NCBI GenBank assembly: GCA_000004985.1
Contig: GG738917.1
Length of the DNA stretch: 64,000 bases
Reading direction: 5' to 3' (one strand)
From: Naegleria gruberi
Taxonomy: Eukaryota
The notes beneath the pieces are model-generated. The model saw nothing but the letters and a program-made list of their open reading frames with translations. It was not told where the DNA came from and did not search any database. This document shows positions 1,555-62,383 of the stretch, piece by piece. Numbering within the stretch: position 1 is the stretch's first letter; each line of letters starts with the position of its first letter. The translations under genes and the position numbers were made by a program.

Positions 1555-1832
1555 ACAATATTGGATTAAGAGAAGGAACTAACTAAGGATATAAAGAAAG
1601 AAGTCTATATGTAGTATCAATTATGATTACCGTGNNNNNNNNNNNNNNNNNNNNNNNNNNNNNNNNNNNNNNNNNNNNNNNNNNAGCAAAATATTGGATT
1701 AAGAAAGCCAAAGAAGGAAATAACTAAGGATAAAGAAAGAAGTCCATATGTCCTTATCAGTCCTTTTCTGTACACTTGTGAGATGCAGAGTGGAAAGATT
1801 ACATGTAGTATCAATTATGATTACCGTGTGTG
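1555..1832. repeat. Tandem repeat (~80-140 bp units) flanking and probably collapsed into assembly gap 1
   Basis: Unit 'a(c/a)aatattggattaaga..aactaaggata(t)aaagaaagaagtc(t/c)atatgt' occurs at 1555-1634 and again at 1685-1750. The 26-mer 'atgtagtatcaattatgattaccgtg' occurs at 1609-1634 and 1805-1830. Confidence 0.6.
1635..1684. other. Assembly gap (50 N)
   Basis: Run of N. Confidence 0.99.
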
Positions 1833-4922: not shown

Positions 4923-5994
4923 ATGAAGAAACTAAAGAATACATTTCGCTCTTCTTCAGTTGATCCACTTGATCTTGTAGAAGCAAATGATGCTTCCATG
5001 ATGTGTAAGTTATTCTCCAAGATTTTCAATGTTAAATATTTAAAACATTGTAAACTGTGATGATAATAATTTACAACAACAATTAATCATAATTTAACAT
5101 ATTTAAATAGGTATGACATTGGATGAAGTAAAAGGAGAATTGGAAAAGTTGATTGTTTCCATGCATGTTGAAACTAAATCTGATAGTAAAAACTCAGAGG
5201 AAGAAGGAGATGATATCAGTTTTAATTATGATGTGATTGGTAAGGACGTTCCTAGATTGGTTGGAAAGACCTATGTGAATGGTGTGAAAATGTCAAATGT
5301 TCCACATTTTATTGTTTCACTTATTGATTTAATTTTAAATAGAGGAATTCCAACTGAATTACAACAACCAGGTGATAACTGTGCTGTTGATGTTCATGAA
5401 TATTATAATAATTTATATGCTCAATTGAGTTCAGTGATGAAACAAAATAATATTGTAGAGGATAGTGTTTCATTGACAAGTTATTTAAAGTCACTCTTCA
5501 TGGTCCACAATCCAGTCTTTCAACTTTTGAGATCATATAATCAAAATGCTATTTCTCAACCTGTTACATATTACAAATTAATTTTACAAACAGTTCACAA
5601 ACTTCAATTCCAAGATAAGGATTGGAATGTTTACTGGGACATTACAGATCATGACATGTATGGTAAAAAGAGAACTATTTCAGTTACACACGTAAGATCT
5701 GAAAAATACCTCTCAGATAGACAAATTAAATTTAGTTTTTCATGGAGTATTAAATTCGAATATGAACAAGTTGTTAAGAGTATTGAGGAGTATAATAGAA
5801 GTCCAGTTTCAAACTTGGAATTAATTGCCCAAAAGGATTACACTCCAGCTCGTTTAACTCAAGTCACCATGAGCTTTAATAATCTTGATGAATTCTATGA
5901 AAATGTTCCATGTGAAAATGCTTCCTTCTCCTCAAAGGAAAGTACCATTGCCTTCTTGGAATACATTTTCGAGAGCACTTCTATCAAGTTTTAA
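4923..5994 (+). CDS. Hypothetical protein; join(4923..5004,5111..5994)
   Basis: The 293-aa ORF from ATG 5113 has no recognisable domain. An upstream exon (ATG 4923, MKKLKNTFRSSSVDPLDLVEANDASMM) ends in phase 1 at GTAAGT (5005). The acceptor 'aaatag' at 5110 joins in frame (t+gt=Cys, then MTLDEV..). Confidence 0.45.
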
Positions 5995-9215: not shown

Positions 9216-10040
9216 TTACAGCTTTGAGTATTTGCTTGCATTATTAAATAGATCCCCCAAATGCTTTTTTCTATCTTGCAGTTTCTTATTCAAACTCTTC
9301 AAAAACTCATTCACTTGATCGAACAATTTATTCCACAATTCCACATTCTTGGATATTTTGGAAATAAACTTCGTTTCTTTTCTTCTGATTATTATTCCTT
9401 TTGAATATTTAGATTTCTTAAGCAATATCAAGCAAATTAATAAATGTTCTATTATTTCTTTTAGTTCCATTAAATTTTCTTGTTTTATGTATGTTTCGAT
9501 ATGTTGGGAGAAATTGGATTTTAATATCTCAAATAATCTTTGATTTTCTGACTTATCCAAAAACAAATATCCTCCCAAGTTGACTTGTTTCGTTTCGAAA
9601 TGAAGCTCCAAGAATGTAGATGCTGGTTGATTTATCATTTTTGAAAGTAAATTGATATTATCTGATTTTAGATAATTCATTCCAACTGTGAATGGGAATT
9701 CATCATCCAATTCAAAATTATTAGACATTTTCCCACCCCCTTCCAAAAACAGAATATTAATATTATCAAAACTAATTCTACTTTCTTTCAATTGTTGATT
9801 TATGTATTTCTCCAATATCTTTTCATTACTAAAATTCATATAAATAAATAAATGCTTAAAACTATCATTTCTTCCGATACTATTCACATCTAAAGCTGTA
9901 GGTTCGGAATTGTATCCAATAACATATTCCAACCTTGGTTCGTAATGAGAAATTAATTGACAAATTCTTGTTTGATTCCTCGCAAATTCCAATCCAACCA
10001 CATGTGGTTGTATGATTATAAATTTGGAATTTGGGAACAT
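9216..10040 (-). CDS. Hypothetical protein (274 aa)
   Basis: ATG-initiated minus ORF of coding-like composition. No domain recognised. Confidence 0.45.
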   Translation of the reverse strand: MFPNSKFIIIQPHVVGLEFARNQTRICQLISHYEPRLEYVIGYNSEPTALDVNSIGRNDSFKHLFIYMNFSNEKILEKYINQQLKESRISFDNINILFLEGGGKMSNNFELDDEFPFTVGMNYLKSDNINLLSKMINQPASTFLELHFETKQVNLGGYLFLDKSENQRLFEILKSNFSQHIETYIKQENLMELKEIIEHLLICLILLKKSKYSKGIIIRRKETKFISKISKNVELWNKLFDQVNEFLKSLNKKLQDRKKHLGDLFNNASKYSKL

Positions 10041-10238: not shown

Positions 10239-12023
10239 ATGAGAGCAGTTGTGAGGTTATGCCCTCATCATACTTATCCGACCAATAATAATAATAATAT
10301 TAATAATTCATTGAAGACCGGAAGGGAAACATCAGAGGTTCCCTCACCAAACTATTATTATGAAGCAACGGATTTGGAACATTTTACAGTGTATGAAAAT
10401 AATGTTAGGGAAAATGGAAAAACCTTCGAATGTAAACATATTTATGATAGCAGTGCAACACAATTTGATATTTTTGCTAATGAAGTAGTTCCGTTGATTG
10501 AGAAATGCTTTCAGGCTCAGGATTGTGCTGTTCTTTATTTCGGAAGTGATTTTGCTGGAAAACGATTTTCACTAGAAGGATTACCTGAATATCCAGGATT
10601 TTTCTATAGAACTATTGAGCTTTTATTTGACACAATAGGTAGGATTAATAATCTATTTCTGTTAACTTATCATTTAACCAGCTGGTGAGGATCCTTCAAA
10701 CAAATGTAGACTATTTTACTCTTCCTTCACTATTGAGAAGGAAACGATATTCGACAACTTGCCTAGTGATTCCAGTTCTCAAATAAAATTGAGAGATGAT
10801 AAAAAGAAAGGAATAATAGCAGAGGGTGGAACCTTAATAGAACTGTACGATATTCAACAAGCTCTTCAAGTTTATTATGAATCAACGTAAGTGGATTTTA
10901 GTTTCAAGTTACCAAATTTCTTAGATCAAAATTTTATAAATCCCTCTCCATGGGTCAGAATAAGCATTTAGTTATAAATATCAGGATTGATATTAGCAAT
11001 GCTTGCAAATCTAATTTTACAAAAGGAGAATACGGCATTTTAAGCATGGTTTCAGTTGGGAGTCCTACAATTAAACCTCAATCTTCAGTGGAAAAGAACC
11101 AAGAAATGGAAGTAGCTAATTTTTGGGTTAACCACTTAGGTAGTTGCATGAATTCATTACACAATTCTGTGAATCCCTCAATTCCATTTCACAAATCAAA
11201 ATTTACTCTTCTTCTTAGAGATTTTCTAATGAGAAACAAGGACAGCACTTCATTGTTCAATCTTAGCCCTCTTCATGAAAGTTACAAGTTTGTTGTTCAA
11301 ACTTTAACAATATGCAACAGAATATGTAAGACAACGCCAGCTAGTGTTGAAACGAAAAAGACAATAACCAAGAGCTCTGCTAAAACAAGTTCAGCCACAG
11401 AAAGGAAAACCACTAATTCAGATCTAGAAAAGAAAACTCAAGAAGTTGACGCCTTAACAAGAGAAAACAGAGAACTTTCTGATAAGATGAAGGCAATAGA
11501 GGACCAATTAAGGAAGATCCAAGAAAAACAAGAAAAGCAAACGATTCAAATTAATGCTCTATCGCCAACAAAACCAAAAGACGATGATGGATTACGGGTT
11601 TCAAAAAAGATGGCCAGACCTTCTTCTTCCAAATCGATACTGAATACGAGTGCTAGCAGCGAACTAGACAGATACAGAGAGGTAATGGAAGGAACATTAA
11701 CAAAGTTAAAAAACCAAATTAAATCATTGGAGATTGAGAACTCTGAGGTAAAGAAAGAAATGACTAAACGTGAGAATACATACAAGAAGAAAATCTCAGA
11801 GCTTGTAAATGATGTCAAAAGAGATAGTTATCAAAAGCAAATTCAAGAATTACAAACTAGAGTTGAATCACTAACAAAAACTGTACACGAGCTGAAAGCA
11901 CAAAAGAAAAACTTAACAGAAGGAGAAAAAATATACAGAACTCAGTTTGAAAAATTATCAAAAGAAAACCAAGAACTAAAACAAAAACTAGGAATAGTCT
12001 CTCATTCAATTGCTTCTAGCTGA
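10239..12023 (+). CDS. Kinesin-like protein with a degenerate (probably catalytically inactive) N-terminal motor domain plus coiled-coil stalk; join(10239..10638,10682..10886,10925..12023)
   Basis: Motor-domain landmarks are aligned but mutated. The P-loop GQTGSGKT becomes GSDFAGKR. The 'YLEIYNE..DLL' motif becomes SFTIEKETIFDNL. Switch I NxxSSRSH becomes NACKSNF. Switch II DLAGSE becomes NHLGSC. Conserved HIPYRDSKLTRLLQDSLGG becomes HKSKFTLLLRDFLMRN. Two short introns (43 nt at 10639-10681, GTAGGA..CCAG; 38 nt at 10887-10924, GTAAGT..CTTAG) join three ORF-track fragments in frame. The C-terminal ~300 aa is heptad-rich. Confidence 0.7.
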
Positions 12024-12285
12024 ATGAGGAAGAATATGAAGTCCACAGCCTAGATGATGATAGTGAATTTATGAACGAGCCTAGTGAGCTACCTCCTGAA
12101 AAATCTGATCATGAAAGAAAGTTGGAAAGAGAAGTAATTTTACTGAAGGAGGCTCTGCAGTTTGCCCTCTCTCAAAAACAATCAAATCCAAACGCTTCAC
12201 AACAGGGATCTGGATCAGTCAATCCTTTCAGGATTTCTAATGTTCAACCTCCTTTCTTGAAAAAAAAATAATTTAATAATTAAAA

Positions 12286-15200
12286 ATGATTAACGACAAC
12301 AACCAGGAACCTCCATTAACACCTTCTCAAACGCAACATAGAAGAACACAATCGGAATTCATTCAAACTTCTCAATCATCTCCACCAGACAATATAATTA
12401 ATCCATCTCCAATTTCTACTCCGATTCATTCTTCATCAACCATTGAATCCATAGAATCCGACAATAATTTCGTAACGCCAACAACTCTTATTAACAACCA
12501 AGAATCAAGTCAAAAGTCAACAACCCATCACGAAAGAAAATTTAAATCAAAACATTTTTCATTATTCGAATTAAATGGAAAGGAAGATAATAGTCACATC
12601 TACACACCTTCTTCATTGATATTTTATACTCCATCATCAAGAAAGAAATCACTTGTTGTTTCGAATAATAACAATCCAAATAATGATATTGATAATAATT
12701 TACTTTTAACACCCCGAGCTACAACAACTTCGACCGAAATGAGCTTGTCACCAACACCCAAAATGAGAACAAGCTCACTTTTTGTAAAATCACCAAATAC
12801 CAAAGAGAAATCACCTCATCAGCAAACATTGTCATTGGAAGAGTTTCCATTGCCAGATTTTTCAAGTTTGAGAAAATTTAATCATATTACTTTTGATCAA
12901 TTTGAGATAAATCAAACAAATCAACAACAAACTAAACTAGAGAATGATACAGCGGGAGTAATTGAAGAAAGTGAACTTTTGATAGAGGATGGAAAGCCTT
13001 CAAGTGTGAGGAATGAGTTTTTTCAAAGCCCTTTGCCAAGCGTAAACGAACTATTAACTCAAAATGTAGAGAAGAAGGAAAATACTGTAAATATTGGTCC
13101 TTATTCGATTTATACAGACACCGAGTATCCATTAAAATCTAATTCTAAAACCATTGAAATGGTTTTCGGTAATATTACTAAGAATTTACCTGAGAATGAA
13201 AGTGGTATTACTGATAAATACTTTTATGATGGAATTAATACCATAACAAATGAGAAAGTGAATGTAATAAGTCAATTAGTTAGTGCAGAGTTTGTAGAAA
13301 CATACAGAGAAAGATCGAAAAAGTTACTTTTAATAGATAATGTAACTGGAATAATCAGATTTTTGGACGTTGCTGAAATCCAATTGAACAAAAATAATAT
13401 TGAGTCTATCGATTTCAATACTGGAAACATTTCATCAGCTGGCTCAATATTCTACATTTTCGTAGAGCCTTGTTTATTAATGTACAAAATTATTCAAAAG
13501 ACTAAAATAGAGGAAAAGAAATTTTCTTACCCAATTTTATTAGAATGGTTGAGCCAATTATCTGATGGATTAGCAAATATTCATGAGCAACTTGAGACTG
13601 TGCATGGAAATATTGACGTGAACTCTATATTTTTCTCCAAACTTGAAGAAAGTATGAAAATAGGAAACATGCTACTTATTACACCACAAATTCTTGCAAG
13701 TGCTGATCCAATGAAATCTCCAAGTATTGACAAACCAAGTGAGAGAATGTTTGAAGCCACTTCAAATAAGCCAATATATCACTCATTTACACCTCTAGAC
13801 TTGGGAGGAGACAGGTATGGAGGTGTTTGTAGGTATGATTTTAAAACTGAAGTGTGGTTATTTGGCATCTTGATGATTACAATCATCACTATGAAAAATA
13901 TGAATGTTATCACGCATAGCTTCTTAGACAATGACCAGTCTTTTGTTTCTTCTATATTCCAGTTGATAAGTAAGCAATATAATGATAGATTTAGTGCACT
14001 TATTTGGAGATGTTGTCACTATGACCCAAGTTGCAGACCTAACATGAGAGAATTATGTCAACAACTTGCTCTTTTAAAGAAATATAGAAGTATTTCTGGA
14101 TCCACAACAACCAGTTCAACTTTCAATACCTCATTTTACGAAAATGATGTTAATCAATATCAGAAAAGATTAGACGATATTCGTGTAAACATGGAATTGG
14201 GAAGTATTTTGAGCGATTTATATGAATGTGAGGATGGAGCAAGTGAAAAACAATCTGGTAACAGATTACCAACAAGAAATAGTAACAGCTACGACATTTT
14301 ACCACTATCAAGTATGGATGGCCCAGCTGTTCTTCCCTCTCTTATTTCAATAGGTAGAACAATTATGAGATACGTTAATAAGCACTACAAAATCAAAGAC
14401 AAGAAAAAGAAGAAACTAAAATTAGCAACTATGAAAACAAAACTAATGAAAATTGCACATATACAAGAAACAGAAGTTGATAACAGAAGATCTAGTAAAA
14501 AAACCTTGGAGGAAGAGTTGAAATTGAGAAACCACACCAGAGTCTTTGAACATCAAGAAGAGGTAGATCTCAAAATACTCCAAGCTAAAATTGCCAATCA
14601 ATACTCAATAATTTCAGTAATTGGGAGTGGTAGTCAGGGAACTGTCATCAAAGCATTCGATAGCCAAAATAATAGATTTGTAGCAATCAAACGTATTAGA
14701 ATGAAGGATAATAATGATACCATGTTGGCCTCCAAAGAAATTTCAGCCATGTTCTCACTCAATGACAATGATAACATTTGTAAAATTTACAACTGGTTTA
14801 TTTATTGTGAGAATAGAGAAGATAAGAAAATAATTACCTCAGAAAATCTTTCAGATAGTGAGGATGAGCATGATTTTGATGAGGAAGATGACGAGGAGGA
14901 TGAGTACGATTTCAAGGATTATGCTAACGAGACTTGGTACATTGGAATTGTAATGGAATATTGTTCTGAAGGAGATTTGAGAAAAGCCATGAGATACTGT
15001 AGAGAATGCAATACTTACTTTAAAAATTCAACAGTTAAAAAGTGGCTCAATGAGTTGATTTGTGCAACAGATTATATTCATAGAAGAAATTTAATGCACA
15101 GGGATATTTCTACAAAGAATATTTTCCTTCATAGCAACACTGAATTACAACCATCTAGCACATTAATTGGAACACCTCCATCATATTTTGACGCTTGTCA

Positions 15201-16421
15201 TGTAAAAATTGGAGATATGGGACTTTCCATAAAGTTAGAAGAACTCAATAGAAATAACTCGGCTTGGGGAACCAGACGATGGATGGCACCTGTAAGTAAT
15301 TATCAATTAATATTTCTAAAATCTCAATATAGGAGCAACGGTTGGGTAAAAGATATGACTCTACTGTGGATATTTGGAGTTTAGGATGTATTGCATTAGA
15401 AATGGTTTTACAATATTCGTATTCGATGGTTGTAAAGTCAAGTAATTCAATGGACAATATGGATCATGATATGAGACATGTGGACTATTATCAAGAAATT
15501 AAGAATAATCCTAACTTTTTGAATGATATACTAAGACCACTGGAGTCATACTATGATGACAATATAATAGAATTCATTAAAAAGTGCCTTGTTATTGAAC
15601 CATGGAAACGAGCCAAGGCTCAACAATTATATGGCCTACTCAATCAAGATATTAGATCAGTGGAGAACGCTGAGGTTCACTATGACCAGAGCCTTGAAGA
15701 GTTTCATCCATCTCCCTTCTCTGTGGAAAAGAAAGGATTGGAACAACTCCATGCAGCAACACCCACCGCTGCCAATATCCCTAACAAATTAATTGAAAAT
15801 GCAAGTCTAAGTAACTTGGCGCTCTTACAAAACGAAAGGGATAAAGTGAATGCATTGATAGAGAAAGTAGAAGAATCACAAAGTATTCGTAAAATATCCA
15901 ATCCAGTATTTATAGAGCTTGGAGCTGATAACAAAAAATATACTAAACCAGAACCAAAAGCAACCCACAAACTAACATCCACCATGACAATCGAAAGTAG
16001 AAATGTTCTCACAAGCCATGGATTAAGCACATTTTTCAAAGAAATTGAAGTTGAAGAAAATCATGAAAAAGAAAGCCAATCACTGAAAGACCACAATGAA
16101 TCCTCATCAAGCAATAATGAAATGCTTCCAGAAGAATTTTCCACACAAGTTAAAAGAGGTCATGAAAAGTCACTCCACAAACTCTTGCAAAAATCAATAT
16201 CTGATTGGACAACAAACGATGTAGGAATTTGGCTCATTTCAATTGATTTTAGCAAATTTGTTGAGAATTTTCAATCTCAGAATATTACCGGAAGAGCTTT
16301 ATTGTTAATAAGAGAAGAAGATATGAAAGATGTGGGTGTAGTTAAATTGGGAGACAAACTTTTATTGTGGAACATGATTCAGAATTTAAGACAACTTCAC
16401 GATAGAAAGCAAAAGAAATAA
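12286..16421 (+). CDS. Large Ser/Thr protein kinase: N-terminal low-complexity region, pseudokinase-like domain, active kinase domain, C-terminal SAM domain; join(12286..15291,15333..16421)
   Basis: Active kinase motifs: GSGSQGTV, VAIK, HRDISTKN, DMG, then GTRRWMAP|EQRLGKRYDSTVDIWSLGC restored by a 41-nt intron 15292-15332 (GTAAGT..TATAG). The upstream domain has a degenerate C-lobe (HGNIDVNSIFF, DLGG, KTEVWLFGILM, CHYDPSCRPNMREL). The C-terminal DWTTNDVGIWL..LGDKLLLWNMIQNL is SAM-like. Confidence 0.75.
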
Positions 16422-21053: not shown

Positions 21054-21103
21054 NNNNNNNNNNNNNNNNNNNNNNNNNNNNNNNNNNNNNNNNNNNNNNN
21101 NNN
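21054..21103. other. Assembly gap (50 N)
   Basis: Run of N. Confidence 0.99.
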
Positions 21104-26422: not shown

Positions 26423-26494
26423 TCCCGTGTAGTCCAATGGCTAGGATACCTGGCTTTCACCCAGGAGGTCCGGGTTCAATTCCCGGCATGGGAG
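26423..26494 (+). tRNA. tRNA-Glu (anticodon UUC)
   Basis: Cloverleaf: acceptor TCCCGTG/CATGGGA; anticodon stem CCTGG/CCAGG with loop CTTTCAC; T-arm GGTTCAATTCC; discriminator G. Confidence 0.9.
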
Positions 26495-30339: not shown

Positions 30340-30409
30340 GCGTCGATGGTTTAGTGGTAGAATACGGCGTTGCCATCGCCGTGACCCGGGTCAATTCCCG
30401 GTCGACGCA
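30340..30409 (+). tRNA. tRNA-Gly (anticodon GCC)
   Basis: Acceptor GCGTCGA/TCGACGC; anticodon stem CGGCG/CGCCG with loop TTGCCAT; T-arm CCGGGTCAATTCCCGG; discriminator A. Confidence 0.85.
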
Positions 30410-30972
30410 TTCAAAGATAACAATTTTTACTTTCTACATACAATATTATAATATTGTATATAATATTGGACCAAAGCCTTAATATCATTTGTATCATTCA
30501 TAAGCATTAGTTATTGCAATTCTTGATAAATATTCAATCCCTTTTTCTCCAATATTAATAAATTAGATCAAAGATTGGAAATTTCCTTTTATCCTTTCTT
30601 CTGACACATTTCTATTCAACGTTAAACATTCAGTTGTCGCAAATTTTGACAAATAGATCGACTTCCTACATCTTGAACCTATGCTGAAATCAAGTTTAGT
30701 TTCGTTAAAGTTGAAGTTTTTATTTGAAATTAAATTAGCTCCTTCACTTCCCAATTTTACATGTTTCATTTCATTTTGGAACTATATCTTAATAAATCAA
30801 AATTGAGATCAATCTTAAAAGGTTAATCTTTTCAGTTTCGAACACTTTGAAAGGTGTTTAACAGTTTCATCTCCTACCACTCCATTAATTCCCTCTATCA
30901 ATGCTAAACCTGAAAGTAATTCATTTTTTCTTTTCTTCATGGAACTTTGATTGTTGTTGAAAACGTTGTAAG

Positions 30973-31053
30973 GCGGTCTTGACCGAGTGGTTAAGGTGAT
31001 TGACTAGAAATCAATTGGGGAGACCCGCACAGGTTCGAGTCCTGTAGATCGCG
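30973..31053 (+). tRNA. tRNA-Ser (anticodon AGA), class II with long variable arm
   Basis: Acceptor GCGGTCT/AGATCGC (one G-U); D-arm CCGAGTGGTTAAGG; anticodon stem ATTGA/TCAAT with loop CTAGAAA; variable arm GGGGAGACCCGC; T-arm CAGGTTCGAGTCCTG; discriminator G. Confidence 0.85.
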
Positions 31054-31127
31054 ATTGTTTTTATTAAGGTATCACATGTTAAAGTGTGATATTATTTTGA
31101 TTAATAAACATATTGTTATTGGGAAGA

Positions 31128-31200
31128 TCCCCCTTAGCTCAGTCGGTAGAGCGTCAGACTGTTAATCTGCAGGTCGGTGGTTCGAGCCCACCAGGGGGAG
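31128..31200 (+). tRNA. tRNA-Asn (anticodon GUU)
   Basis: Acceptor TCCCCCT/AGGGGGA; D-arm GCTCAGTCGGTAGAGC; anticodon loop CTGTTAA; T-arm GGTGGTTCGAGCCCACC; discriminator G. Confidence 0.85.
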
Positions 31201-34999: not shown

Positions 35000-37900
35000 T
35001 TAAAGCTTGAAGAATTTAGAATATTTGCCCATATTTAAGAGACCATTGTTTGCTTCAACAGTTGGATGTACAAGGAATGCAATTGAATTTTCAGCTTTGA
35101 GCACAACATTAACTTCTGGACAACACTTCTTAACTGTTTCAATAGTTTCTTGGAATACCTCTTCAACATTCTTAAAGTTAACAAATGAATAGCTTACTCT
35201 CTTGTCATTAGTTAATTGAATGCATTGTCTATTACTCATATTCCTCTTTCCAACCTTGGAGATCTTTACAAGTTGAGAGTATGGAAGTATCATCTTTAAA
35301 CATGAACCACTATTAACAGTTGTAGTGAAACATAGACAATCTGTGAAAATGTAAAATTCACCAATCAACTTGGTATCATAATCAGTACAACTGTACTTGT
35401 TGAATAATCTTGTTTCTGGTTTGAGATTAAATGTCTTTCTAACAACATCAGAGACAGGATATCCCTTCTTTGAGATAACCTTTTGTTGAGATGCAATATC
35501 AGAATCCTTATCATCCTCCTTTGTAGTGTTAATAAATAAGAGCTTGTTAACAAGTGATGAATCTTTTGCTTTGAATTCACTTGCATTCTTCAAGATGAAT
35601 GTTTGAATAACTTCAAATGCCTTCTCTCTATCTTTGAAACATGAAAATTGGAATTCCTTCTCAGATTTGGAAACAGTAATTGAATTATCGAGTGCTCCTG
35701 CACCAAATGTAGATCTGAATACACTCTTAATTTTACCTATAGAAATCTTGATATAATCAATTTGAGTGTTATATTGAGGTTCTGATGTGAAAAAGTTAGC
35801 AGTTCCTCTAATTGCAGTCATTGGATTCAAGTAATGTAGCATTGAATATTCCTTGTTTGTTGCTTCAATTGTAACATCAAGTTTAAATAACTTGATAAGG
35901 GATGATATTGGAATCCAACTGATACAAATATCAGGTGAACTCAAAATACAAATAAATCCGTCATTTCCTTTGTACATGCATCTGAAGAAATCAGTGATAA
36001 CTAATTTAATTTCTTCGTCAGCTCCAGTAATCTTTGTTGGGAACTTTAAAAAGTTCATGAATTCTTCGCCAAGTTGACCTGCAAGCCCTTTTCTACATGA
36101 TCTTACAAAAGCATCCAATCTAAAAACAATATCTTTCAAATAATCAGAGCTTTCCATTTCAAAGAATTCGGATTCAATCATCTTGGCTTCATTTTCCACC
36201 ATTTCTGTAATATTCTTCTTTTCAAGTTCAAGGATGGCTTTTTGATGAAGGAGAGATTCAATTTCCTTTCTCAAATCCTTTGCTTTAGATCTTGTTTGTT
36301 TTCTTTCATTTGTAATTACTCTCATAGATTTAACATGTTTGTATTTCTTTTTCAATCCATCAATTTCCTTTCTCAAATTATCCAAAGATTGTTTGGATTG
36401 TTGATAATTATCTTTAGCAGTTTTAAGTGCTTTTTGGAACATGTCAAAATCACTATTAATTAAAGCTTGATTACCTTCAAACAATGACATTTCTGAAGTA
36501 ACAAACTTGTTAGCATCAGGGTCATTCATTCTCTTATTTCTTGTTTCAATGGCTCTTCTGTGCAGAATAGCAAATATATAATTACTTGTTACAATAATCT
36601 TACTCTTAACTTCTTCTGCATCAGCAATTTGATCTTTCAAATCATGAATTTCTTCTTCTTTATCTTTTCTAGCTAAATCCTTATTCATTGTTTCTATGAG
36701 ATTGGCAACATCTTCAATTTGGATTGATTTTTCATTGTATTCATCAATTAGCCTCTTTGTAGATGTCAAACTCAATTGGAATAATTCAGAAATAAAATCA
36801 AAATGTTCCTTAATGTACTTTACATCAAGACCAGATCCATTTGCATTGAAATAATCCATGAAAGATTCAAATGTTGTTTTGAATTTTTCAATTTGAGATC
36901 TTGTTAGAGTTGGTCTATCAGCAGGAGGAATAGCACATTCCTTCAACTCATCAATTAACATGTTAAAGATATTTCTAAGAACAACCTCAAATACCCTATC
37001 ATTGAGGACACTATAAAGAGTAGCCAATTGATCATCCAAATAATCAAAAAGTGGTGTCATGAGCGAGTTGAGATCAATCTCAGAAACATTTGGTTGTAAA
37101 TTATTAACTGGTAGTCTATTGGATGATGTAGTTCTTGTAGGAGTTGAAGGATTACTTCTTGTAGGAGTTCCTGGAGAAGAAGGAACAGCACCAGGTTGAC
37201 TAATCTTTGTAATTGTATCAATTAAACTTTCCTTCATGGTCTTGAAGATTAATTGTGAAAGGTGGTTATTCATCTTTTCTTGGATCATTGACTTTAAAGA
37301 TGTTAACAATACTTTCATAGTATCGTGCATCATTCTCATACCTTCCAACAGGTCATCCTTCTTCTTTTGTGAATAAGATGAAGTTACGGATGTACTTAAA
37401 TCAATAGATTGAGATTCATCATCTTCATCCAAGGATCCTAAATCATAATCTTCGATTTGATTGGCAATTTCAGATTGTTGCTTCAGCAATTGTTTGTGAA
37501 TATCTTCAGAGAGTGATCTCACTTGATTAATAGTTTCTAAAATATTATTCATACATAAACCCATTTTAGAAACAATTTGTTTGTGAACATCCTTTCTAGT
37601 TTCTTCATACAAATCTTCTTCCTGTTGTTGTTGTTGAACAGTAGTTTTTCTCTTCAATAACATATCCTTATATTTGGCACTTGTTTTTCTATTGACATAT
37701 TCTTCTTCAATCTTTTTCATCTTTGTGGTATTATCAATAAATATTTCCAAATTCATAGTCGCATAATTTTCAATAACTGTTGCAATAACGTGTGTATAGG
37801 TTACATAGATGAGAGGAAGAGTTTCAAGTGAAGAGTTACCTGTTCCAAACTTGGAATTTGTAGACTCAGCCAAAGTTCTAAAAGAATCCAAAATTGATTC

Positions 37901-40900
37901 AGAGGCATATTGGGCAGGTGGTTGAATTTCTGATTTTAAGAATTGTAAACTTGTTTCTAAAATAATTAAACTTTGTCTTAATGATGTGAATGTATCAATA
38001 ACTGATGTAGTATAACTAACATCTTGAGTAATTGGTTTCCATTCACCATAGTCAACTGCCTTCTTACACCATGAAGTTGCACTCTTTTCAAACGTTTCAA
38101 TCCACTTGTAAACATATGGAATGAAGATATCTTTAAGTGCATATGGTTGAACATTAGCATGGTCAGCTAATAATTGATAAATCTTTTCAATCTTTGATGG
38201 TAAATCGAATAAACCTAAAGGAAGTTCTCCTCTATCAGTGTAATATCTAAATTTGCTTGATTTTAACTTGTGTAGTTCAATTTCAATACATGAATAGACT
38301 TGATTAGACACAATTTTCATTACACCAACACTTGAAGGGAAAGTAGGTTCGAAATGAGTTTCATATCGTGGTAAATGTTCATTTAAAACTTCAATGAGAC
38401 ATAATAATTGAACTGGATGAAGACCTCCACTCTCATCAGGTTGTAAATTTGGATCTTTCTCTGCTAATTTGTTAATAATTTTACCTCTATAATAATCAAA
38501 CAAATTAACCATACTATTTTCGATACCTTCCTTTGTTGCAATTGAAAGTGATTTGTAACCATGATTAATACCATCAGGATCTGCCATACATGAGAAGGCA
38601 TGAATTAAAGTTGAAACCTTAACAGCAAACATGATAATGGTATCCATAGTTTCATTTGCTGATTTCCAGTGATTGTCAATAATGAAACTCAACTCTCTAT
38701 TAATATTCTTTGCTGCTTGGGCAAAGATTCTCTTCTCAGAGGATGTCAAATAATATCTATCAATAACTGGATCATCATCAAGTAATTTGTCCTTCTTTTT
38801 CAATTTTCCTGCAGCAGAAAGATTTCTTGTAATAATGGTTCTTACCAAGTGAAGTAAACACTTGTAAATATTACCAATTTCAGAGTAGGAATGTTTGAAT
38901 TGTCTTGAGAGTTTTTCCAACAAGACCAAGAATGCAAAGACACCATCTCCATATCCATAAAAGTTAGAAACAGCTTGAATAACTTCGAGAGATTCATCTT
39001 TAAGTGTCAACATCTTAGTTTTAACTTTGGTTGATTTATCTTCTTCCTCATCTTCATCATCGCTATCAGCTGCTGAGCTTCTCTTTTCTTCAACAGTAAA
39101 AAGTGAATATTGAAGAATACAATCAATAAATTGTTGGATAATAACATGTCTATATCTAACATCTTCATCACCATTATCGTGCCTCTTCTTTACATCATCA
39201 AGTGATAAACTGAATTGAGAAAGTGCTTCATCAATATTCTTTGTTTCAGTTTCAATGAAATTGTCATATTCACGATCTGATTCAAAGTGCTTTTTAGCAT
39301 AGAATGGGTGTTCATCTTCAGAATCAACAAATCTGTGATATCTTGTTGTACATTCTTCTAAAAGTAGATTTTTAACTCCTAGTTTTTTCAATTCTCTCAA
39401 TTTGTAGTCTTTCAGATCATCTCCAACAAAACAAGCTTCCGCAACAATATTATACAAAATATTGAACTTTTCTGATGGCATACCAATATTAACATCAAAG
39501 TACATTACAAAAACAGCTCTAGCAGCAAGATTAAATGCTTCCTCACGTTGGGATTTCAAAATAGTAACAGAAGCTCTTGAAAATCCTGTTAAAACTGCTC
39601 TAATATTAGAAAATGGATCTCTCATAATGTTATTTTGTCTATCCATTTCATAGAGCTTTTTGGTAAATTCAACTTGTTCTTTTCTGTTTGAAATTTTGTG
39701 AATTTTAACAGATTTTCTATTCTTTCCAGTTGGGATCACAGGGCTGGTTGCTTCATCTTGAGTATTTTTGAGTAAATCTTCAAAATCTTCACCATCCAAT
39801 AATTCATCAAGACTCAAACTTGGAACATTGACATCTTGATCTGCTTCCTTCTTATTCTTTGTTGAAGGAGTATTAATGGTTCCAATAACATTATCCATAA
39901 TTTCATGACCTTCCAATTCTTCGAAAGCTGTAGCACTATCAAATGCCATTTCAGACTTGTCTTGAACTTTACCAAGTTTTTTCAAAGTCTTTGAATTCTT
40001 CATGATTGGAATTTCATAATTATCAATAATATTGAGAACAGTTCTAAGAATTTGAACAGATAAACCCTGCCTTTCTCTATCATGTTCTAAACCCATAACA
40101 GATAAGAAGAGTGACTCGTAGGTATTTCTGAATTTTTCTGCATGTAATTTGGCAGCTGTACAGAAACCGTCAGTATAGTTAGGGAACATTTTGATCATCG
40201 TTGCAGATTGAGTCATTGCTTCATCATGTCTTTCAGGGTCTTTATCGAGCATGAGTGATTCAATGTGGTGACGAAGATATCTCTTATTGTTTGGTTCCAA
40301 TAAGACAGCTTCAGAGAATAATTCTTGTGCCTTTTGAAGATCTTCATAACTGTCATCCTCTTCTTCAATTTCAATCTTTTCTTTCTTTCCACCATAACTA
40401 AAGACACTGAGTGCACTAAATATGGATGTGTAGAGACTTTCATCTTCTTCCTTTGAATTTTTAATTTCTTGTTTGATTTCATCTTTTTTACGTTTCAAGA
40501 ATGCTGTATAATTTTCAAAGAAGATTTGACCTTCTTCATCTTTTTCAGCTGCAGTAATACTCTTTGATTCTCTATCATAAATTTCATCTTTCAATAAGAG
40601 TAAGTTATCCATAGCTTCTTCATCGTCAAATGTTAAACTTTCTTCAATAATTTCCTTAGCCTTTTCATAATCACACAATTCCAAATAGATTGTTGCAAGG
40701 GTAGCATAAACTTCTTCACTAGTATCATGTAGGAGAGCTTCTTGAGCGTCTTTCAATGCAATTTCTGGTTGAGAAAGTTTAAGTAACACTCTGGCTCTTC
40801 TACATAAATATTGGGCACAATCATCGTGTAGGTGAATAGCACTAGAGTAGAGTTCAAGTGCTTGTTCATAATTTCCATTGGCATAACAATCTTCAGCATC

Positions 40901-43900
40901 TCTTGCTCTCAAATAGGCTTCATTCCATTGGCTTTCAATTCTGATTAATTTTTCCAATCTCAATCTCAAAGTTTGATCATTTGGATACATATCCATACCG
41001 TTTTGTAATAAGGTTTTAGCTTCTGAGAAATTTTTGAGTTCTAAATGGATATCAGAATGTAATCTAATAGCAATAATATTCTTTGGATCGAACTTTAAAA
41101 CCTTGGTGGAATCATCAAGAGCTTTTTTGAACTTTTGTCTCTCGAATAATGCTTTCGATCTTGCCAATAAATATTCAATATTATTTGGACGTAATCTGAT
41201 GGCCTTATTCAAACAATTAATAGCTACATCAAATTCTTCAGCTTCAATGGCTTCTCTTCCTTCTTCAAATTTCTTCTCTGCATCAAAACTAGCTGTTTGA
41301 AGTTTTACATTATGCCAAACATCATTGAGTGGTGTATTGAATGGAGATTGAGCAAGAGCACTATTACACAATTCAATACTTTCTTCAAGATTTCCTGTTT
41401 CCATCAATGATTTACACAATAATACATAAAAGTGGGGGAATGTACTTTCTAATTTAACAGCTTGTCTACAATCTTCAATAGATTTTTCAAATTCTTCATT
41501 CTCATAATAGCATTCAGCTCTTTCAAAGTATAATGAAGCATAATCTCTATCATCTTGAGTCTTTTCTTCACTATCTTCTATTTTCAATGAGAGAGCTTCA
41601 GTAAATTGTCTTATCGCTTCATAAAAGTCATTTTTGGACTTGGATTTCATACCTGCTTTAACAAGGAAATCAAACTTGTCTCTTGTTCGTTTCAAATCTT
41701 CTACTTTCTTTGTTAAATCTTCTAACTTTTCAATATGTTCAGATTGAAGATACAAGTGACGTTCATATTCTTCAATTTTTCTCTTCTTTTGTGCTCTATG
41801 TTTAAAAGTCATATCTTTAAGATAGTTAGTGGCAATATCGAATTGACGCATTGAGGTATAAGCTCTTGCACCAAGAGAAATAGCTTCATAAATGACGTCT
41901 ACATTAACTCTATCGACTGTATCTTCCTTCTTTTCATCATCAGTTTCTGCCTTTTTATATCTTTGACCAAGGAAGGAAAGATAGAGACCATCAGTAATTT
42001 GTCTCATCACTTCAATAGCCTCCTTAATATGCGATACACAATGAATATATTGTCTGAGTAAATATTTACATCTTGCTTTGGATAAATAAAAATCTGCACT
42101 GTGTGGATAAAGATCAATGGCTTCATCCAATAAACTGACTATTTGTTCAATTTGTGCAATGGTCTTTTGGGGAAGTTCTAAACTTGTAATATTAATTTTG
42201 TAAAGTGTAAATTTAGGATTTTCAGTGACAATTTCCTTTTCGACATCTTGGAAAATAAACAAGGCTCTTTCATATTTCATTTGGGCAAGTTGTTTCTTCT
42301 TATATAAATCCTTAGACTTCATGAATTGACTCTTAATGTTTGAGTTTTCAGGGAACATTCTCATGGCTGCTTCCAGAACTGTAATAGAATGATGGTATCT
42401 ATTTAAAAACTGTAAAGCAACACCCTGACACAGGTAACCTTCATAACTCTTTGGTGAGATTCTAGAGGCGAGAACGGCAACTTTCAAGGCATTCAAGTGT
42501 TTCTTCTTTCCTAACAAAATATCAACCTTATCTGAAAGATAGGAAATATTAGTTGGATCCTTTTCAATAACTTCATTGATAGTGAGTAGGGCGTCTTCAT
42601 AATTTCCTTGTTGGAATAACTGTTTGGCATAAATTGATAAGTTGGCTGCTTTTTGCATGGTTTCCTTCTTCTTTTCTGCGTCCTTGAGTGCTTGTTTTAA
42701 TTGATTGAACCCTTCATTAACTGAAACTCCATCCATTTCCAAGAATTCATCAGCAGCATTTACAACCTCACAGTTTTCAACACCTTGTCCAAAAAATTCA
42801 ATAGCCTTGGTAACCTTTCTTTTGGCCAAATAACATGAACCAATAATATAATAGGCTTTCCAATAGTCGACAGCCATTTCCAAAACTTTCTTTGCATATT
42901 TTACGCATTGCTTATAGTCTGTCTTGAGATAAAAAGCATCAGCCAAGGCAATAATGTACTTGACACCAAATGGCTCGAATGAAATAACTTTTTTTAACAA
43001 ATCAATAGCCTGATCACAATCAGATTGTTCCATATTTACATCAATTTCCTTAAATAAATATTCTTCAAAGAAAAGATCAAGAGTTTGAGATTCTTCTTCT
43101 ACAATTTCTTCTTGCTCTTTCATTCTAATTTCATCAATCTTATTAATTTTTTCTCTGTAAGATTCTAATAAATCCTTAGCTTTGTCAAACAAACTTTCAA
43201 CAATCATACTTCTATCCCTCTTTTCAGAGAGGAATCGTTCAAACTTTTCAAGTTTTTCTCTCAGATAAACATCTTGTGGTTTTTCATTTTTGAATGAAAG
43301 AATATTTGAAAAACTGAAATTAGCAGCCTTATTGGCCTTTTTGAAAAATTGTTGAATTTGCTCTTCAGCACTGTCAATGGTGGTCAAGCCAGTGTCATAT
43401 TGCTTCTTTCTTTCAAATGCTGTGGCCTTTACAATATATACAGAGGTCATCCAAGATCCAATTGAAGCGTAATCAATTGTTTTCTTTTCCTTGATATCTA
43501 TCATATCAAGCATTTCAACATATTTGAGGAATCTATTGGCATCATTGATTGCCTCATTAAAGTTACGTTCTTTAATTCTACACTTTGCTCTGATCTTGTA
43601 ACTCCTCAATATCAAATTGTTAGGGAATTTACCCTTCATTAATTTTGATTCTTCATCTGAAATTACATCTGTTAACATTAATCTGGCAGAAATATGATCA
43701 TTGAGTCTGTAAAAAATAATACCCTTCTTGGTTTTAAAATCACTATCATCGTGTCTGAGTTTCAGACCTTCCTCTACATCAATATTAGCCTTGTCCCACA
43801 TTTTCAATTTCATATAACACTCAGCTCTTGTTCTATATTGTTCTATATTCTTAGGATTCTTTCTAATTTTGATTGTTTCTGCTTCAATCAATTTTACAAG

Positions 43901-56600: not shown

Positions 56601-57081
56601 TTTTTTAATTAGAAGACACTACTCGGTTTCATTAAGAATTATAAACAGTCTGTGTTATTTCAAGATTTTGAAGTGCATTTACACCACGATGCAGACATTG
56701 TATTTAAATTCTGGTTAACATTTTAACCCCACTAATATCACTATTACTAAGTTTCGTCAAGAATAGTTCCAAAACAAGTGTTTGTCTTTTGATTCAAAAT
56801 ATTCATCTATTCTTTAACAACCAAGATTAAGAAATCATAATGAAGAATCCAACCTGATTCTTAGGAGTTGTTAAAAAAAGGCTGGAGTTGGCACGAAGGA
56901 GTCACAATGTTTTTAATTTTAATAAAAAAATTTTTAAAAAACAAATAGCACTCCGACCACTAGCCTATTTTCCCGTTGTGGCCAGAAATTTCATCATCAA
57001 AAATCTCTTTTTCATCATCTTATAAATTTTGTAATAATAATTAAACTCTAGTAATATATAAATATAATTGTACTTTAGAAA

Positions 57082-58284: not shown

Positions 58285-58460
58285 CTCTGTGTGCTATCCA
58301 ATTAGTAAAATTTATCGTGTCCGTTCATTCCTTTCATCAAACAATTTTATTATCAAAAAAAACAACGAAACATAATAACAGTAGTTAATTCTCATCATTA
58401 TCACTATATTTAATCATCATTATCATTATATTTAATTTATTATATACATTTATTAAAATC

Positions 58461-60087: not shown

Positions 60088-60355
60088 TAATAATAACATG
60101 ACCCTTACATCTTCAAGAAAGAAATAAAGCCTTTCTTTTTTTTTAACATCATTGAAGCATTCTATGATTATTACATATCGGATCATGAAACATCATCCTC
60201 TTCAAAATATAAACAATTGTAATATTACCGAACATTATCACTTCATCAAATAATTAAATTGTTATTTGATGATAATTTTGATGGTGCAATAAAATTTTTG
60301 AAATTTTGCTCTTTGAAAAAAAAAACAACAAACCACTCCTACACAACTTTAAAAA

Positions 60356-61886: not shown

Positions 61887-61958
61887 TAGCAAATCTAGGT
61901 TTCGATCCTAGGACCTATGGGTTATGAGCCCATCGCGCTTCCGCTGCGCCAATTTGCT
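61887..61958 (-). tRNA. Initiator tRNA-Met (anticodon CAU)
   Basis: Minus-strand reading: AGCAAATTGGCGCAGCGGAAGCGCGATGGGCTCATAACCCATAGGTCCTAGGATCGAAACCTAGATTTGCT + A. It has A1:U72, three G-C pairs in the anticodon stem, and the GATCGAAACC T-loop (A54/A60), all typical of eukaryotic initiator tRNA. Confidence 0.85.
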
Positions 61959-62100: not shown

Positions 62101-62383
62101 NNNNNNNNNNNNNNNNNNNNNNNNNNNNNNNNNNNNNNNNNNNNNNNNNNNNNNNNNNNNNNNNNNNNNNNNNNNNNNNNNNNNNNNNNNNNNNNNNNNN
62201 NNNNNNNNNNNNNNNNNNNNNNNNNNNNNNNNNNNNNNNNNNNNNNNNNNNNNNNNNNNNNNNNNNNNNNNNNNNNNNNNNNNNNNNNNNNNNNNNNNNN
62301 NNNNNNNNNNNNNNNNNNNNNNNNNNNNNNNNNNNNNNNNNNNNNNNNNNNNNNNNNNNNNNNNNNNNNNNNNNNNNNNNNNN
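62101..62383. other. Assembly gap (283 N)
   Basis: Run of N. Confidence 0.99.

What the first reader, a model, noticed from the sequence alone, without database searches (positions are those of the whole stretch)
10239..12271. Kinesin-like gene with every nucleotide-handling motif degenerate (candidate pseudokinesin)
The motor domain aligns block by block with kinesin, but the P-loop (GSDFAGKR), switch I (NACKSNF) and switch II (NHLGSC) have all lost the invariant residues. The microtubule-facing HIPYRDSKLT-like block and the neck/coiled-coil stalk are retained. The architecture is N-terminal motor plus stalk, unlike the yeast Vik1/Cik1 C-terminal motor-homology domains. This would make it a separate example of an ATPase-dead kinesin, likely a scaffold or regulator. 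Also, ORF 12071-12271 in the next frame starts right after the kinesin stop and continues with a charged, coiled-coil-like sequence. The annotated stop may therefore be a frameshift artefact, and the true protein ~70 aa longer.
Basis: partly seen in the sequence, partly recalled or inferred. Interest (0 to 1): 0.6.

Follow-up and report, generated by a model that had tools for sequence, protein, structure and literature searches.

The report
Conserved ATPase-dead kinesin of discoban protists
This is a real, intact gene for a kinesin-shaped protein that has lost the residues needed to burn ATP; the same losses recur in relatives from Naegleria-type amoebae to diplonemids, so it is a conserved, undescribed "dead motor" family, not a sequencing error.

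Summary
The gene is real (+ strand, 10239-12271).

Switch I is GQNKH (10953-10967), not NACKSNF. Switch II is SVGSPT (11052-11069), not NHLGSC, which is helix alpha4. The P-loop GSDFAGKR still keeps G-x4-G-K; only the final Thr is lost (to Arg).

The same substitutions occur in Willaertia magna, Naegleria lovaniensis, Percolomonas cosmopolitus, two Diplonema species and about ten unnamed metagenome or read-archive proteins. This rules out a sequence error or a recent pseudogene.

The family shares a strongly conserved L12/alpha5 block (PSIPFHKSK), a stalk motif (Y-R/K-E-V-M-E) and a C-terminal helix. The ORF at 12071-12271 is the homologous C-terminus. It is joined either by a 23-nt GT..AG mini-intron (11997-12019) or by a one-base indel, giving 642 aa.

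Most likely it is a non-catalytic, dimeric microtubule-binding or adaptor subunit. Dead kinesins with an N-terminal head are already known (trypanosome KIN-B, kinesin-11). This is therefore a new member of a known kind. No named member carries more than an automatic label ("hypothetical protein" or "Kinesin motor domain-containing protein").

The parts
10239..10638 (+). Exon 1 (residues 1-133 plus 1 nt). Start Met, beta1 motif RLCP (10254-10265, in place of RxRP), a poly-Asn disordered loop, the conserved block NYYYEATDLEHFTVYENNVRENGKTF (10350-10427) and the P-loop remnant.
   Evidence: The N-terminus MRAVVRLCP matches the orthologue starts MRSVLRICP, MRLVLRLCP and MRVVLRICP.
10542..10565 (+). 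P-loop remnant GSDFAGKR (canonical GQTGSGKT/S). G, G and K are kept here; T is replaced by R. Across the family the Lys is not conserved (K, R, D, E), while the Arg is.
10639..10681 (+). Intron 1, 43 nt, GTAGGA...AACCAG, phase 1. Absent from the Willaertia and N. lovaniensis orthologues.
   Evidence: Reading through it hits a stop at 10688. The spliced product aligns without a gap to the orthologues.
10682..10886 (+). Exon 2, including the L8-like block IKLRDDKKKGIIAEG (10783-10827).
10887..10924 (+). Intron 2, 38 nt, GTAAGT...TTCTTAG, phase 2. The position is conserved in N. lovaniensis (about 41 nt, GTAAGT..AATAG) and in contig L002 (about 37 nt, GTGAGT..GGTAG).
10925..11996 (+). Exon 3: the second half of the head (switch I and II remnants, alpha4, L12/alpha5, alpha6) and most of the stalk.
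10953..10967 (+). Switch I remnant GQNKH (canonical SSRSH). Only the His is conserved in the family.
11052..11069 (+). Switch II remnant SVGSPT (canonical DLAGSE). Asp and Glu are absent in every family member except P0008, which has a Glu at the Gly position (SLGENV).
11121..11159 (+). Helix alpha4 equivalent FWVNHLGSCMNSL. The Trp is near-invariant in the family.
11175..11222 (+). L12/alpha5 block PSIPFHKSKFTLLLRD (canonical HIPYRDSKLTRLLQD). It is the most conserved segment of the family, at 65% mean pairwise identity against 30% for the whole head. Signature changes are R to H and D to K.
11556..11579 (+). ALSPTKPK: a conserved [ST]-P-basic site just after coiled coil 1. It may be a proline-directed kinase site (inference only).
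11670..11690 (+). Stalk motif RYREVME at the start of coiled coil 2. All 16 family members examined have it, as [FY][DE]xY[RK]xVM[ED]xx[ILV]xx[LM].
11997..12019 (+). Frame junction. Either a 23-nt mini-intron GTCTCTCATTCAATTGCTTCTAG (phase 0), or the site of a one-base indel (12017-12021). A 32-nt alternative runs 11997-12028. Unspliced, the ORF ends at TGA 12021-12023.
12020..12271 (+). Exon 4 (the tail, 83 codons plus stop). It holds an acidic linker, a conserved helix ERKLEREVILLKEALQFALSQ (12113-12175) and the terminal ISNVQPPFLKKK (12233-12268).
   Evidence: Homology to the C-termini of P0002/P0153, P0001, P0005, P0007, P0128 and P0155.

Best explanation
The locus encodes a 642-aa pseudokinesin. 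The N-terminal domain (residues 1 to about 335) has the kinesin fold but cannot bind or hydrolyse ATP in the canonical way. RxRP has become RLCP. The P-loop Thr has become Arg. Switch I (SSRSH) is GQNKH. Switch II (DLAGSE) is SVGSPT.

These losses are ancient and are held under purifying selection in a family that spans Heterolobosea (Naegleria, Willaertia, Percolomonas and the window organism) and Diplonemea.

Selection has instead preserved four things:
- the L12/alpha5 face, the main microtubule-contact element of kinesins, in a modified form (PSIPFHKSK);
- the L8 block;
- a fixed motif in the coiled-coil stalk (Y-R/K-E-V-M-E);
- a short C-terminal amphipathic helix.

The inferred mechanism is as follows. 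The protein dimerises through its roughly 200-residue coiled coil. It uses the dead head as a nucleotide-independent (rigor-like) microtubule- or tubulin-binding module. It uses the stalk motif and the C-terminal helix to dock a partner. It would thus act as a static tether, cross-linker or non-catalytic subunit of a motor complex in the spindle or the flagellar apparatus.

Shown here: homology, fold, motif loss, family-wide conservation and gene structure. Inferred only: dimerisation, microtubule binding, the existence of a partner, and the cellular site.
For: - Homology: Pfam Kinesin 114 bits, E 9e-33. All family members with a head exceed the cut-off.
- Fold: the AF2 model of the Willaertia orthologue has head pLDDT above 90. 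Foldseek against PDB returns only kinesin motor domains, TM 0.7-0.8 normalised to target.
- Motif losses are shown against solved kinesins and against canonical kinesins in alignments A3 and A7. They are shared by 16 family members. The P-loop Lys varies between K, R, D and E, so nucleotide binding is not under selection.
- Within the family, L12/alpha5 has 65% pairwise identity and L8 has 43%. Switch I has 17%, L11 has 7%, and the head overall has 30%.
- The stalk motif and the C-terminal helix are conserved from Naegleria-type amoebae to Diplonema.
- ORFs are intact, one intron position is conserved, and neighbouring genes are shared with N. lovaniensis and Willaertia (GlfB_C and kinase-SAM genes; ABC, ArfGAP and WD40 genes).
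- The model shows long helices after the head: 313-356, 366-415 and 447-565.
Against: - There is no experimental or expression evidence for any family member.
- Key microtubule-contact residues are altered. By kinesin-1 numbering recalled from memory, R278 has become His and R284 is not conserved. L11 is not conserved, and the conserved Asn/Ser of alpha4 is replaced.
- The best-studied analogue, KIN-B, does not bind microtubules (PMC10987093).
- Conservation of L12/alpha5 could reflect a different ligand.
- Dimerisation is inferred only from predicted helices in a monomer model.
- The 3' junction is unresolved, so a truncated 567-aa product cannot be excluded in this organism.
Confidence: 0.6

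Rival explanations
1. Pure protein scaffold of the KIN-B type. The dead head no longer touches microtubules. It serves as a protein-interaction domain, while the coiled coil heterodimerises with an active kinesin that provides all microtubule binding and motility.
For: - KIN-B has the same layout (N-terminal inactive head plus coiled coil). It lacks the P-loop, switch I, switch II and many alpha4-L12 residues, pairs with KIN-A, and its head fails to bind microtubules (PMC10987093).
- Here too the canonical alpha4 residues, R278 and L11 are changed.
- The invariant stalk motif looks like a specific partner-recognition site.
Against: - L12/alpha5 and L8 are the best-conserved parts of the head, and basic residues are kept (H-K-S-K). 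That is not expected if this face were unused.
- No partner kinesin is encoded in the window, and none has been identified.
Confidence: 0.25
2. An atypical but still active NTPase. The remaining G-x4-G-K plus the new Arg and His residues support slow or non-canonical nucleotide binding, used as a switch rather than as a motor.
For: The window protein and the Willaertia protein keep GxxxxGK. The His of switch I is invariant in the family.
Against: - The P-loop Lys is replaced by Arg, Asp or Glu in other heterolobosean members, and N. lovaniensis has a two-residue deletion in the loop.
- The Mg-coordinating Thr/Ser, the switch I Ser-Ser-Arg and the switch II Asp-x-x-Gly-x-Glu are missing throughout.
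Confidence: 0.07
3. A decaying pseudogene or an assembly artefact. The degenerate motifs and the frame break at 12020 would reflect loss of function or sequencing errors in a gapped draft scaffold.
For: - The window is a draft scaffold with five N-runs.
- The frame changes at 11997-12023, and the candidate intron there has an atypical GTCTCT donor and is only 23 nt long.
Against: - The same substitutions occur in independent genomes and transcriptomes at 20-50% identity.
- All four exons are open.
- The tail frame stays open for 84 codons in 70% A+T DNA and keeps the family's C-terminal motifs.
- The intron position is conserved.
Confidence: 0.03

Closest known systems
Trypanosoma brucei KIN-B (Tb927.7.5040), the inactive kinesin of the kinetoplastid chromosomal passenger complex
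   Same: [quoted passage not shown]
- It occurs in a discoban lineage.
- Its phyletic distribution is complementary to this family. KIN-B is reported only in trypanosomatids and bodonids, not in diplonemids or euglenids (PMC10987093). This family is found in diplonemids and heteroloboseans.
   Different: - Homology to KIN-B could not be tested because its sequence was not obtainable with these tools.
- KIN-B has also lost many conserved alpha4-L12 tubulin-contact residues, and its head does not bind microtubules. In this family L12/alpha5 is the most conserved block.
- The stalk and C-terminal motifs were not found among the KIN-B cross-linked peptides in that paper's supplement (an incomplete sample).
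Yeast Vik1 and Cik1 motor-homology domains (partners of Kar3)
   Same: They have a kinesin fold without a nucleotide site, joined to a coiled coil, and act as the non-catalytic half of a dimer that still binds microtubules. This comes from established knowledge and was not tested here.
   Different: - Their motor-homology domain is C-terminal and so diverged that sequence profiles do not detect it.
- Here the domain is N-terminal and still scores 114 bits on PF00225.
- Neither appears among the best 60 of 157 PDB matches (E up to 0.001) of the family profile.
Kinesin-11 group (KIF26A/B, C. elegans VAB-8, yeast Smy1) and Drosophila Costal2
   Same: They are N-terminal kinesin-like heads with degenerate ATPase motifs that act as microtubule-bound scaffolds or regulators. 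This comes from established knowledge and was not tested here.
   Different: - They come from opisthokonts and have different tails.
- No sequence comparison could be run.
- The stalk motif Y-R/K-E-V-M-E and the FHKSK signature returned no relevant hit in a full-text search of the held papers.
Canonical kinesin motor domains (closest by score: Plasmodium kinesin-8B, 7z2a)
   Same: The whole head aligns block by block. The single sequence gives E 6.5e-19 and the family profile gives E 2.3e-40. The fold matches at TM 0.7-0.8.
   Different: - All four nucleotide motifs fail.
- Kinesin-8, -14, -2 and -5 score nearly alike (142 to 120 bits), so no subfamily can be assigned.
- No neck linker is recognisable.

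Membership tests
Kinesin superfamily (motor-domain fold, Pfam PF00225) | Profile match above the curated threshold | tested here: met
   114 bits, E 9.2e-33, against a cut-off of 29.3; residues 43-334 match profile positions 23-323 of 327.
Kinesin superfamily (motor-domain fold, Pfam PF00225) | Three-dimensional kinesin fold | tested here: met
   Tested on the Willaertia orthologue (46-50% identical across the head). AF2 head pLDDT is above 90. All top Foldseek PDB hits are kinesin motors, E about 1e-24, TM to target 0.7-0.8. The window protein itself could not be submitted because it is spliced.
Catalytically active kinesin motors | Walker A / P-loop GxxxxGK[ST] | tested here: not met
   GSDFAGKR: the Thr/Ser is replaced by Arg. 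The Lys is not conserved in the family (R, D, E).
Catalytically active kinesin motors | Switch I NxxSSRSH | tested here: not met
   GQNKH: only the His is kept.
Catalytically active kinesin motors | Switch II DxxGxE (DLAGSE) | tested here: not met
   SVGSPT: no Asp and no Glu.
Catalytically active kinesin motors | Adenine-binding RxRP in beta1 | tested here: not met
   RLCP in the window; R[LI]CP, RITP or RVEP in relatives.
Catalytically active kinesin motors | Microtubule-stimulated ATPase and motility | not testable with these tools
   Needs biochemistry.
Catalytically active kinesin motors | Microtubule-binding L12/alpha5 motif (H[IV]P[YF]R[DN]SKLT) | tested here: inconclusive
   SIPFHKSKFT: I, P, S, K and T are kept, but R is replaced by H and D by K. 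It is the most conserved block of the family. Whether it still binds tubulin is unknown.
Discoban pseudokinesin family defined here (Willaertia ABK040_010515, N. lovaniensis XP_044548168.1, Percolomonas A0A7S1KWE4, Diplonema papillatum KAJ9471505.1) | Dead head with a P[FY]H[KR][SH][KR] L12 signature, plus the stalk motif Y[RK]xVM[ED], plus a C-terminal LxxEVxLLxxAL helix | tested here: met
   The window has PFHKSK, RYREVME and LEREVILLKEAL. It is 41-50% identical to the Naegleria and Willaertia members, with shared neighbouring genes.
Kinetoplastid KIN-B | Sequence orthology to Tb927.7.5040 | not testable with these tools
   No KIN-B sequence was obtainable. The published search found no KIN-B homologue outside kinetoplastids.
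Kinetoplastid KIN-B | N-terminal inactive head plus coiled coil | tested here: met
   The architecture matches.
Vik1/Cik1 motor-homology proteins | C-terminal motor-homology domain after the coiled coil | tested here: not met
   The head is N-terminal, at residues 1 to about 335.
Kinesin-11 (KIF26/VAB-8/Smy1) | Phylogenetic grouping with KIF26, VAB-8 or Smy1 heads | not tested
   No reference sequences were available. Profile scores against solved kinesins give no subfamily signal.

The most novel reading that the evidence does not exclude
This family could be the missing non-kinetoplastid counterpart of trypanosome KIN-B. On that reading, an ancestral discoban dead kinesin is the obligate coiled-coil partner of an active kinesin, possibly within the chromosomal passenger complex. 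The conserved stalk motif (Y-R/K-E-V-M-E) and the C-terminal helix would be the partner or cargo docking sites. The phyletic distributions are complementary: KIN-B occurs only in kinetoplastids, and this family occurs in diplonemids and heteroloboseans. That pattern is what very divergent orthologues would show.
Probability: 0.15. Interest if true: 0.7.

Novelty: new member of a known kind. Interest (0 to 1): 0.45.

Why it matters
Dead motors are informative because they show which part of a motor domain is useful without the engine. Here a kinesin head lost ATP handling before Heterolobosea and Diplonemea diverged, yet it has been kept since. Its tubulin-facing L12/alpha5 strip is the most constrained segment of the head.

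Naegleria builds microtubules only for mitosis and for flagella, and it is reported to lack PRC1-type bundlers (PMC10802493). A dimeric, rigor-like kinesin head is therefore a concrete candidate for a static cross-linker, or for the non-catalytic half of a motor.

If the family proves related to KIN-B, it would extend a "kinetoplastid-specific" chromosomal passenger complex component across Discoba.

On the practical side, two things follow:
- The N. lovaniensis gene model starts 87 nt too late.
- Two 23-nt GT..AG junctions in this window suggest a class of mini-introns that gene predictors would miss.

Tried and rejected
- **Word-indexed protein searches** returned only Willaertia and one metagenome protein. 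With the full-length query, only the 8,000 candidates sharing most words were scored, probably crowded by coiled-coil words. The other family members came only from the exhaustive HMMER search.
- **That profile (A2)** lost its first ~107 N-terminal columns, so the N-terminal block did not contribute to the search.
- **The piecewise alignment A1** mis-aligned exon 3 and was discarded.
- **Provenance.** Exact look-ups of four window ORFs found nothing. The query turned out to be an ORF kept open by a 1,097-base N-run, so that look-up is void. The organism remains an unidentified heterolobosean close to Naegleria and Willaertia.
- **Subfamily assignment.** Profile scores against PDB are flat across kinesin-8, -14, -2 and -5.
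- **KIN-B comparison.** afdb50 was unavailable. The eLife supplement holds only cross-linked peptides, none with the family motifs, and that sample is incomplete.
- **Taxon of P0008** (TSA GILK01): not found in the literature.
- **Motif strings** returned no relevant hit in paper full texts.
- **A paralogue comparison** to validate the second 23-nt junction was uninformative.
- **P0154** is a canonical kinesin-14, not a family member.
- **No second kinesin** is encoded in the window.
- **Programmed ribosomal frameshifting** at 12020 was considered and rejected, because there is no slippery heptamer.
- **Longer introns** ending at 12019 were rejected. Homology to P0002 runs up to about 11990, and the only other nearby GT gives a length that is a multiple of three.
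Full report
**Gene structure**

The region is A+T-rich eukaryotic DNA (window G+C 30.5%). An ATG at 10239 opens a reading frame that is interrupted twice. Removing 10639-10681 (43 nt, GTAGGA..CCAG) and 10887-10924 (38 nt, GTAAGT..TTAG) gives one frame ending at TGA 12021-12023, a product of 567 aa.

Intron 2 lies at the same codon position in the Naegleria lovaniensis orthologue (about 41 nt, GTAAGT..AATAG) and in metagenome contig L002. Intron 1 is absent from N. lovaniensis and Willaertia, but the spliced product aligns to them without a gap. The start is confirmed by the shared N-terminus: MRAVVRLCP, MRSVLRICP, MRLVLRLCP and MRVVLRICP.

**The 3' end**

It encodes an acidic linker, the helix ERKLEREVILLKEALQFALSQ and the terminus ISNVQPPFLKKK. 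These align with the C-termini of P0002/P0153 (NLEREVEFLQEAL...ISNVKPPFLRNQ), Willaertia (KLEMEINLLKEAL), P0005 (KLEFELSLTRQAL...NNIVPPFINNNN) and others. The tail therefore belongs to the gene, which makes the protein 642 aa.

Homology to P0002 runs up to about 11990, so the frames must be joined between 11997 and 12021. Three options remain:
- A 23-nt GT..AG segment (11997-12019, GTCTCTCATTCAATTGCTTCTAG, phase 0) joins the frames exactly.
- A 32-nt variant (11997-12028) also works.
- One base missing near 12019-12021 would work as well.

Against the intron: the well-supported introns of the window are 38-46 nt with GTA[AT]G-type donors, and the window is a gapped draft scaffold with five N-runs. 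For the intron: a second 23-nt candidate on the minus strand (28623-28601, GTATGCTGTTCAAATTTTATTAG) has a good donor and the same central TTCAA. It fuses two adjacent ORFs into one coherent 511-aa multi-pass membrane protein with an RGS-like C-terminus. I rate the mini-intron and the indel as about equally likely. A genuine truncation is unlikely, because 84 codons stay open in 70% A+T DNA and keep the family motifs.

**Kinesin homology and motif table**

The spliced protein matches Pfam Kinesin PF00225 at 114 bits, E 9.2e-33, against a cut-off of 29.3. It matches solved kinesins down to E 6.5e-19. Alignment to those structures and to canonical kinesins gives these correspondences (coordinates):

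| Element | Canonical | Window | Coordinates |
|---|---|---|---|
| Beta1 adenine motif | RxRP | RLCP | 10254-10265 |
| P-loop | GQTGSGKT/S | GSDFAGKR | 10542-10565 |
| Switch I | SSRSH | GQNKH | 10953-10967 |
| Switch II | DLAGSE | SVGSPT | 11052-11069 |
| Alpha4 | LxxLGxxIxAL | WVNHLGSCMNSL | within 11121-11159 |
| L12/alpha5 | HIPYRDSKLT | SIPFHKSKFT | within 11175-11222 |

Two assignments were wrong, however. NACKSNF is a loop after the switch I strand, and NHLGSC is alpha4. The P-loop in this species still has G-x4-G-K.

After alpha6 comes a Ser/Thr/Lys-rich linker, not a recognisable neck linker. Two coiled-coil segments follow, separated by a basic Ser-rich linker.

**It is a family, not an accident**

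An exhaustive HMMER search of 1.84 billion representative proteins found only ten proteins at E below 1e-10. The named ones are:
- Willaertia magna ABK040_010515;
- N. lovaniensis XP_044548168.1, labelled 'Kinesin motor domain-containing protein';
- Percolomonas cosmopolitus A0A7S1KWE4.

Weaker hits that lack switch I and II but carry the same stalk motif include Diplonema ambulator and Diplonema papillatum KAJ9471505.1 ('hypothetical protein'). There are also about ten unnamed metagenome or read-archive proteins.

In a 16-member alignment the pattern is consistent:
- The P-loop Lys varies (K, R, D, E), and N. lovaniensis has a two-residue deletion there.
- Only the His of switch I survives.
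- The switch II Asp-x-x-Gly-x-Glu pattern is absent throughout; only P0008 has a Glu there, at the Gly position.
- All members share P[FY]H[KR][SH][KR] in L12.
- All members share the stalk motif [FY][DE]xY[RK]xVM[ED]xx[ILV]xx[LM].
- Most share a C-terminal LxxEVxLLxxALxxAL helix.

Every member that retains a head still passes the Pfam threshold.

Neighbouring genes are shared with N. lovaniensis and Willaertia: a GlfB_C gene and a kinase-SAM gene, and with Willaertia also ABC transporter, ArfGAP and WD40 genes. The window organism is therefore an unidentified heterolobosean near Naegleria and Willaertia. Its proteins are not in the collections.

**What is conserved**

Within seven heads, mean pairwise identity by segment is as follows:

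| Segment | Mean pairwise identity |
|---|---|
| Whole head | 30% |
| L12/alpha5 | 65% |
| P-loop scaffold (not its catalytic residues) | 47% |
| N-terminal beta-lobe block | 45% |
| L8 | 43% |
| Switch II | 29% |
| Switch I | 17% |
| L11 | 7% |

An AlphaFold2 model of the intronless Willaertia orthologue is confident in the head (pLDDT above 90). It matches only kinesin motor domains in the PDB (TM to target 0.7-0.8) and continues into long helices. The family profile scores kinesin-8, -14, -2 and -5 almost equally, so the family is an orphan with no assignable subfamily.

**Mechanism**

Shown here: a kinesin fold, loss of all catalytic motifs, and long-term purifying selection concentrated on the tubulin-facing L12/alpha5 strip, a stalk motif and a C-terminal helix.

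Inferred: a coiled-coil dimer whose dead heads bind microtubules or tubulin without a nucleotide cycle, and whose stalk motif and tail dock a partner. It would act as a tether, cross-linker or non-catalytic motor subunit.

The main rival is a KIN-B-like pure scaffold whose head no longer touches microtubules. KIN-B shares the layout, and its head does not bind microtubules (PMC10987093). In KIN-B, however, many conserved alpha4-L12 tubulin-contact residues are reported lost, whereas here L12/alpha5 is the best-kept block. Residual NTPase activity and pseudogene or artefact explanations are poorly supported.

**Comparison with known systems and novelty**

N-terminal dead kinesins already exist. 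KIN-B is documented in PMC10987093.

What is new is the family itself. It is conserved across two discoban phyla. Its named members carry only automatic labels ("hypothetical protein" or "Kinesin motor domain-containing protein"). The term 'pseudokinesin' and the family's motif strings returned no relevant hit in the held papers.

KIN-B homologues were reported as undetectable in diplonemids and euglenids, and this family fills exactly that phyletic gap. A distant relationship is therefore possible, but I could not test it.

**Verdict**

This is a real and moderately interesting finding. It is a new member of a known kind.

Noticed in passing
window 28623-28601 (minus strand), with ORFs 29426-28624 and 28600-27868: A second 23-nt GT..AG candidate mini-intron (GTATGCTGTTCAAATTTTATTAG). 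It fuses two adjacent ORFs into one 511-aa multi-pass membrane protein with an RGS-like C-terminus. It has the same length and the same central TTCAA as the pseudokinesin junction, which suggests a class of about 23-nt introns that gene predictors would miss.
   Followed up: partly
window 1635-1684, 21054-21103, 48510-48559, 58730-59826, 62101-62383: Five runs of N (50, 50, 50, 1097 and 283 bases), so the window is a gapped draft scaffold. ORFs 46543-48564/48566-49270 and 58461-59837 are split or held open by these gaps.
   Followed up: partly
L003 9914-10000 (Naegleria lovaniensis PYSW02000023.1): The public model XP_044548168.1 starts 87 nt too late. The conserved N-terminus MRLVLRLCP..., which includes the beta1 strand of the head, lies upstream of the annotated ATG. 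The protein also lacks the distal stalk found in the other family members.
   Followed up: partly
window 12286-16421 (+): A large protein kinase with a C-terminal SAM domain. Its first in-frame ATG lies only 14 nt after the pseudokinesin stop. It is split by a 41-nt intron (15292-15332, GTAAGT..ATATAG) inside the kinase domain. An orthologous kinase-SAM gene lies near the pseudokinesin in N. lovaniensis.
   Followed up: partly
window 5113-5994, 54171-61755; L001; L003: Neighbouring genes are shared with Willaertia magna and N. lovaniensis around the pseudokinesin: a GlfB_C-domain gene in both, and ABC transporter, ArfGAP and WD40 genes in Willaertia. In both relatives an Fz-domain gene sits immediately upstream of the pseudokinesin, but it does not in the window.
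   Followed up: partly
window 11556-11579 and the equivalent position in family members: A conserved [ST]-Pro-basic site (ALSPTKPK) lies directly after coiled coil 1 in most family members. It may be a proline-directed (CDK-type) phosphorylation site.
   Followed up: no
window 35000-44971 (minus strand): A single 3,323-codon ORF encoding a Kelch, TPR-array and GRAM domain protein.
   Followed up: no
window 26423-26494, 30340-31200, 61887-61958: Five tRNA genes (Glu-TTC, Gly-GCC, Ser-AGA, Asn-GTT, Met-CAT). Three of them are clustered within 900 bases.
   Followed up: no
window 9216-10040 (minus strand): The 274-aa ORF immediately upstream of the pseudokinesin, divergently oriented, has no Pfam match.
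   Followed up: no
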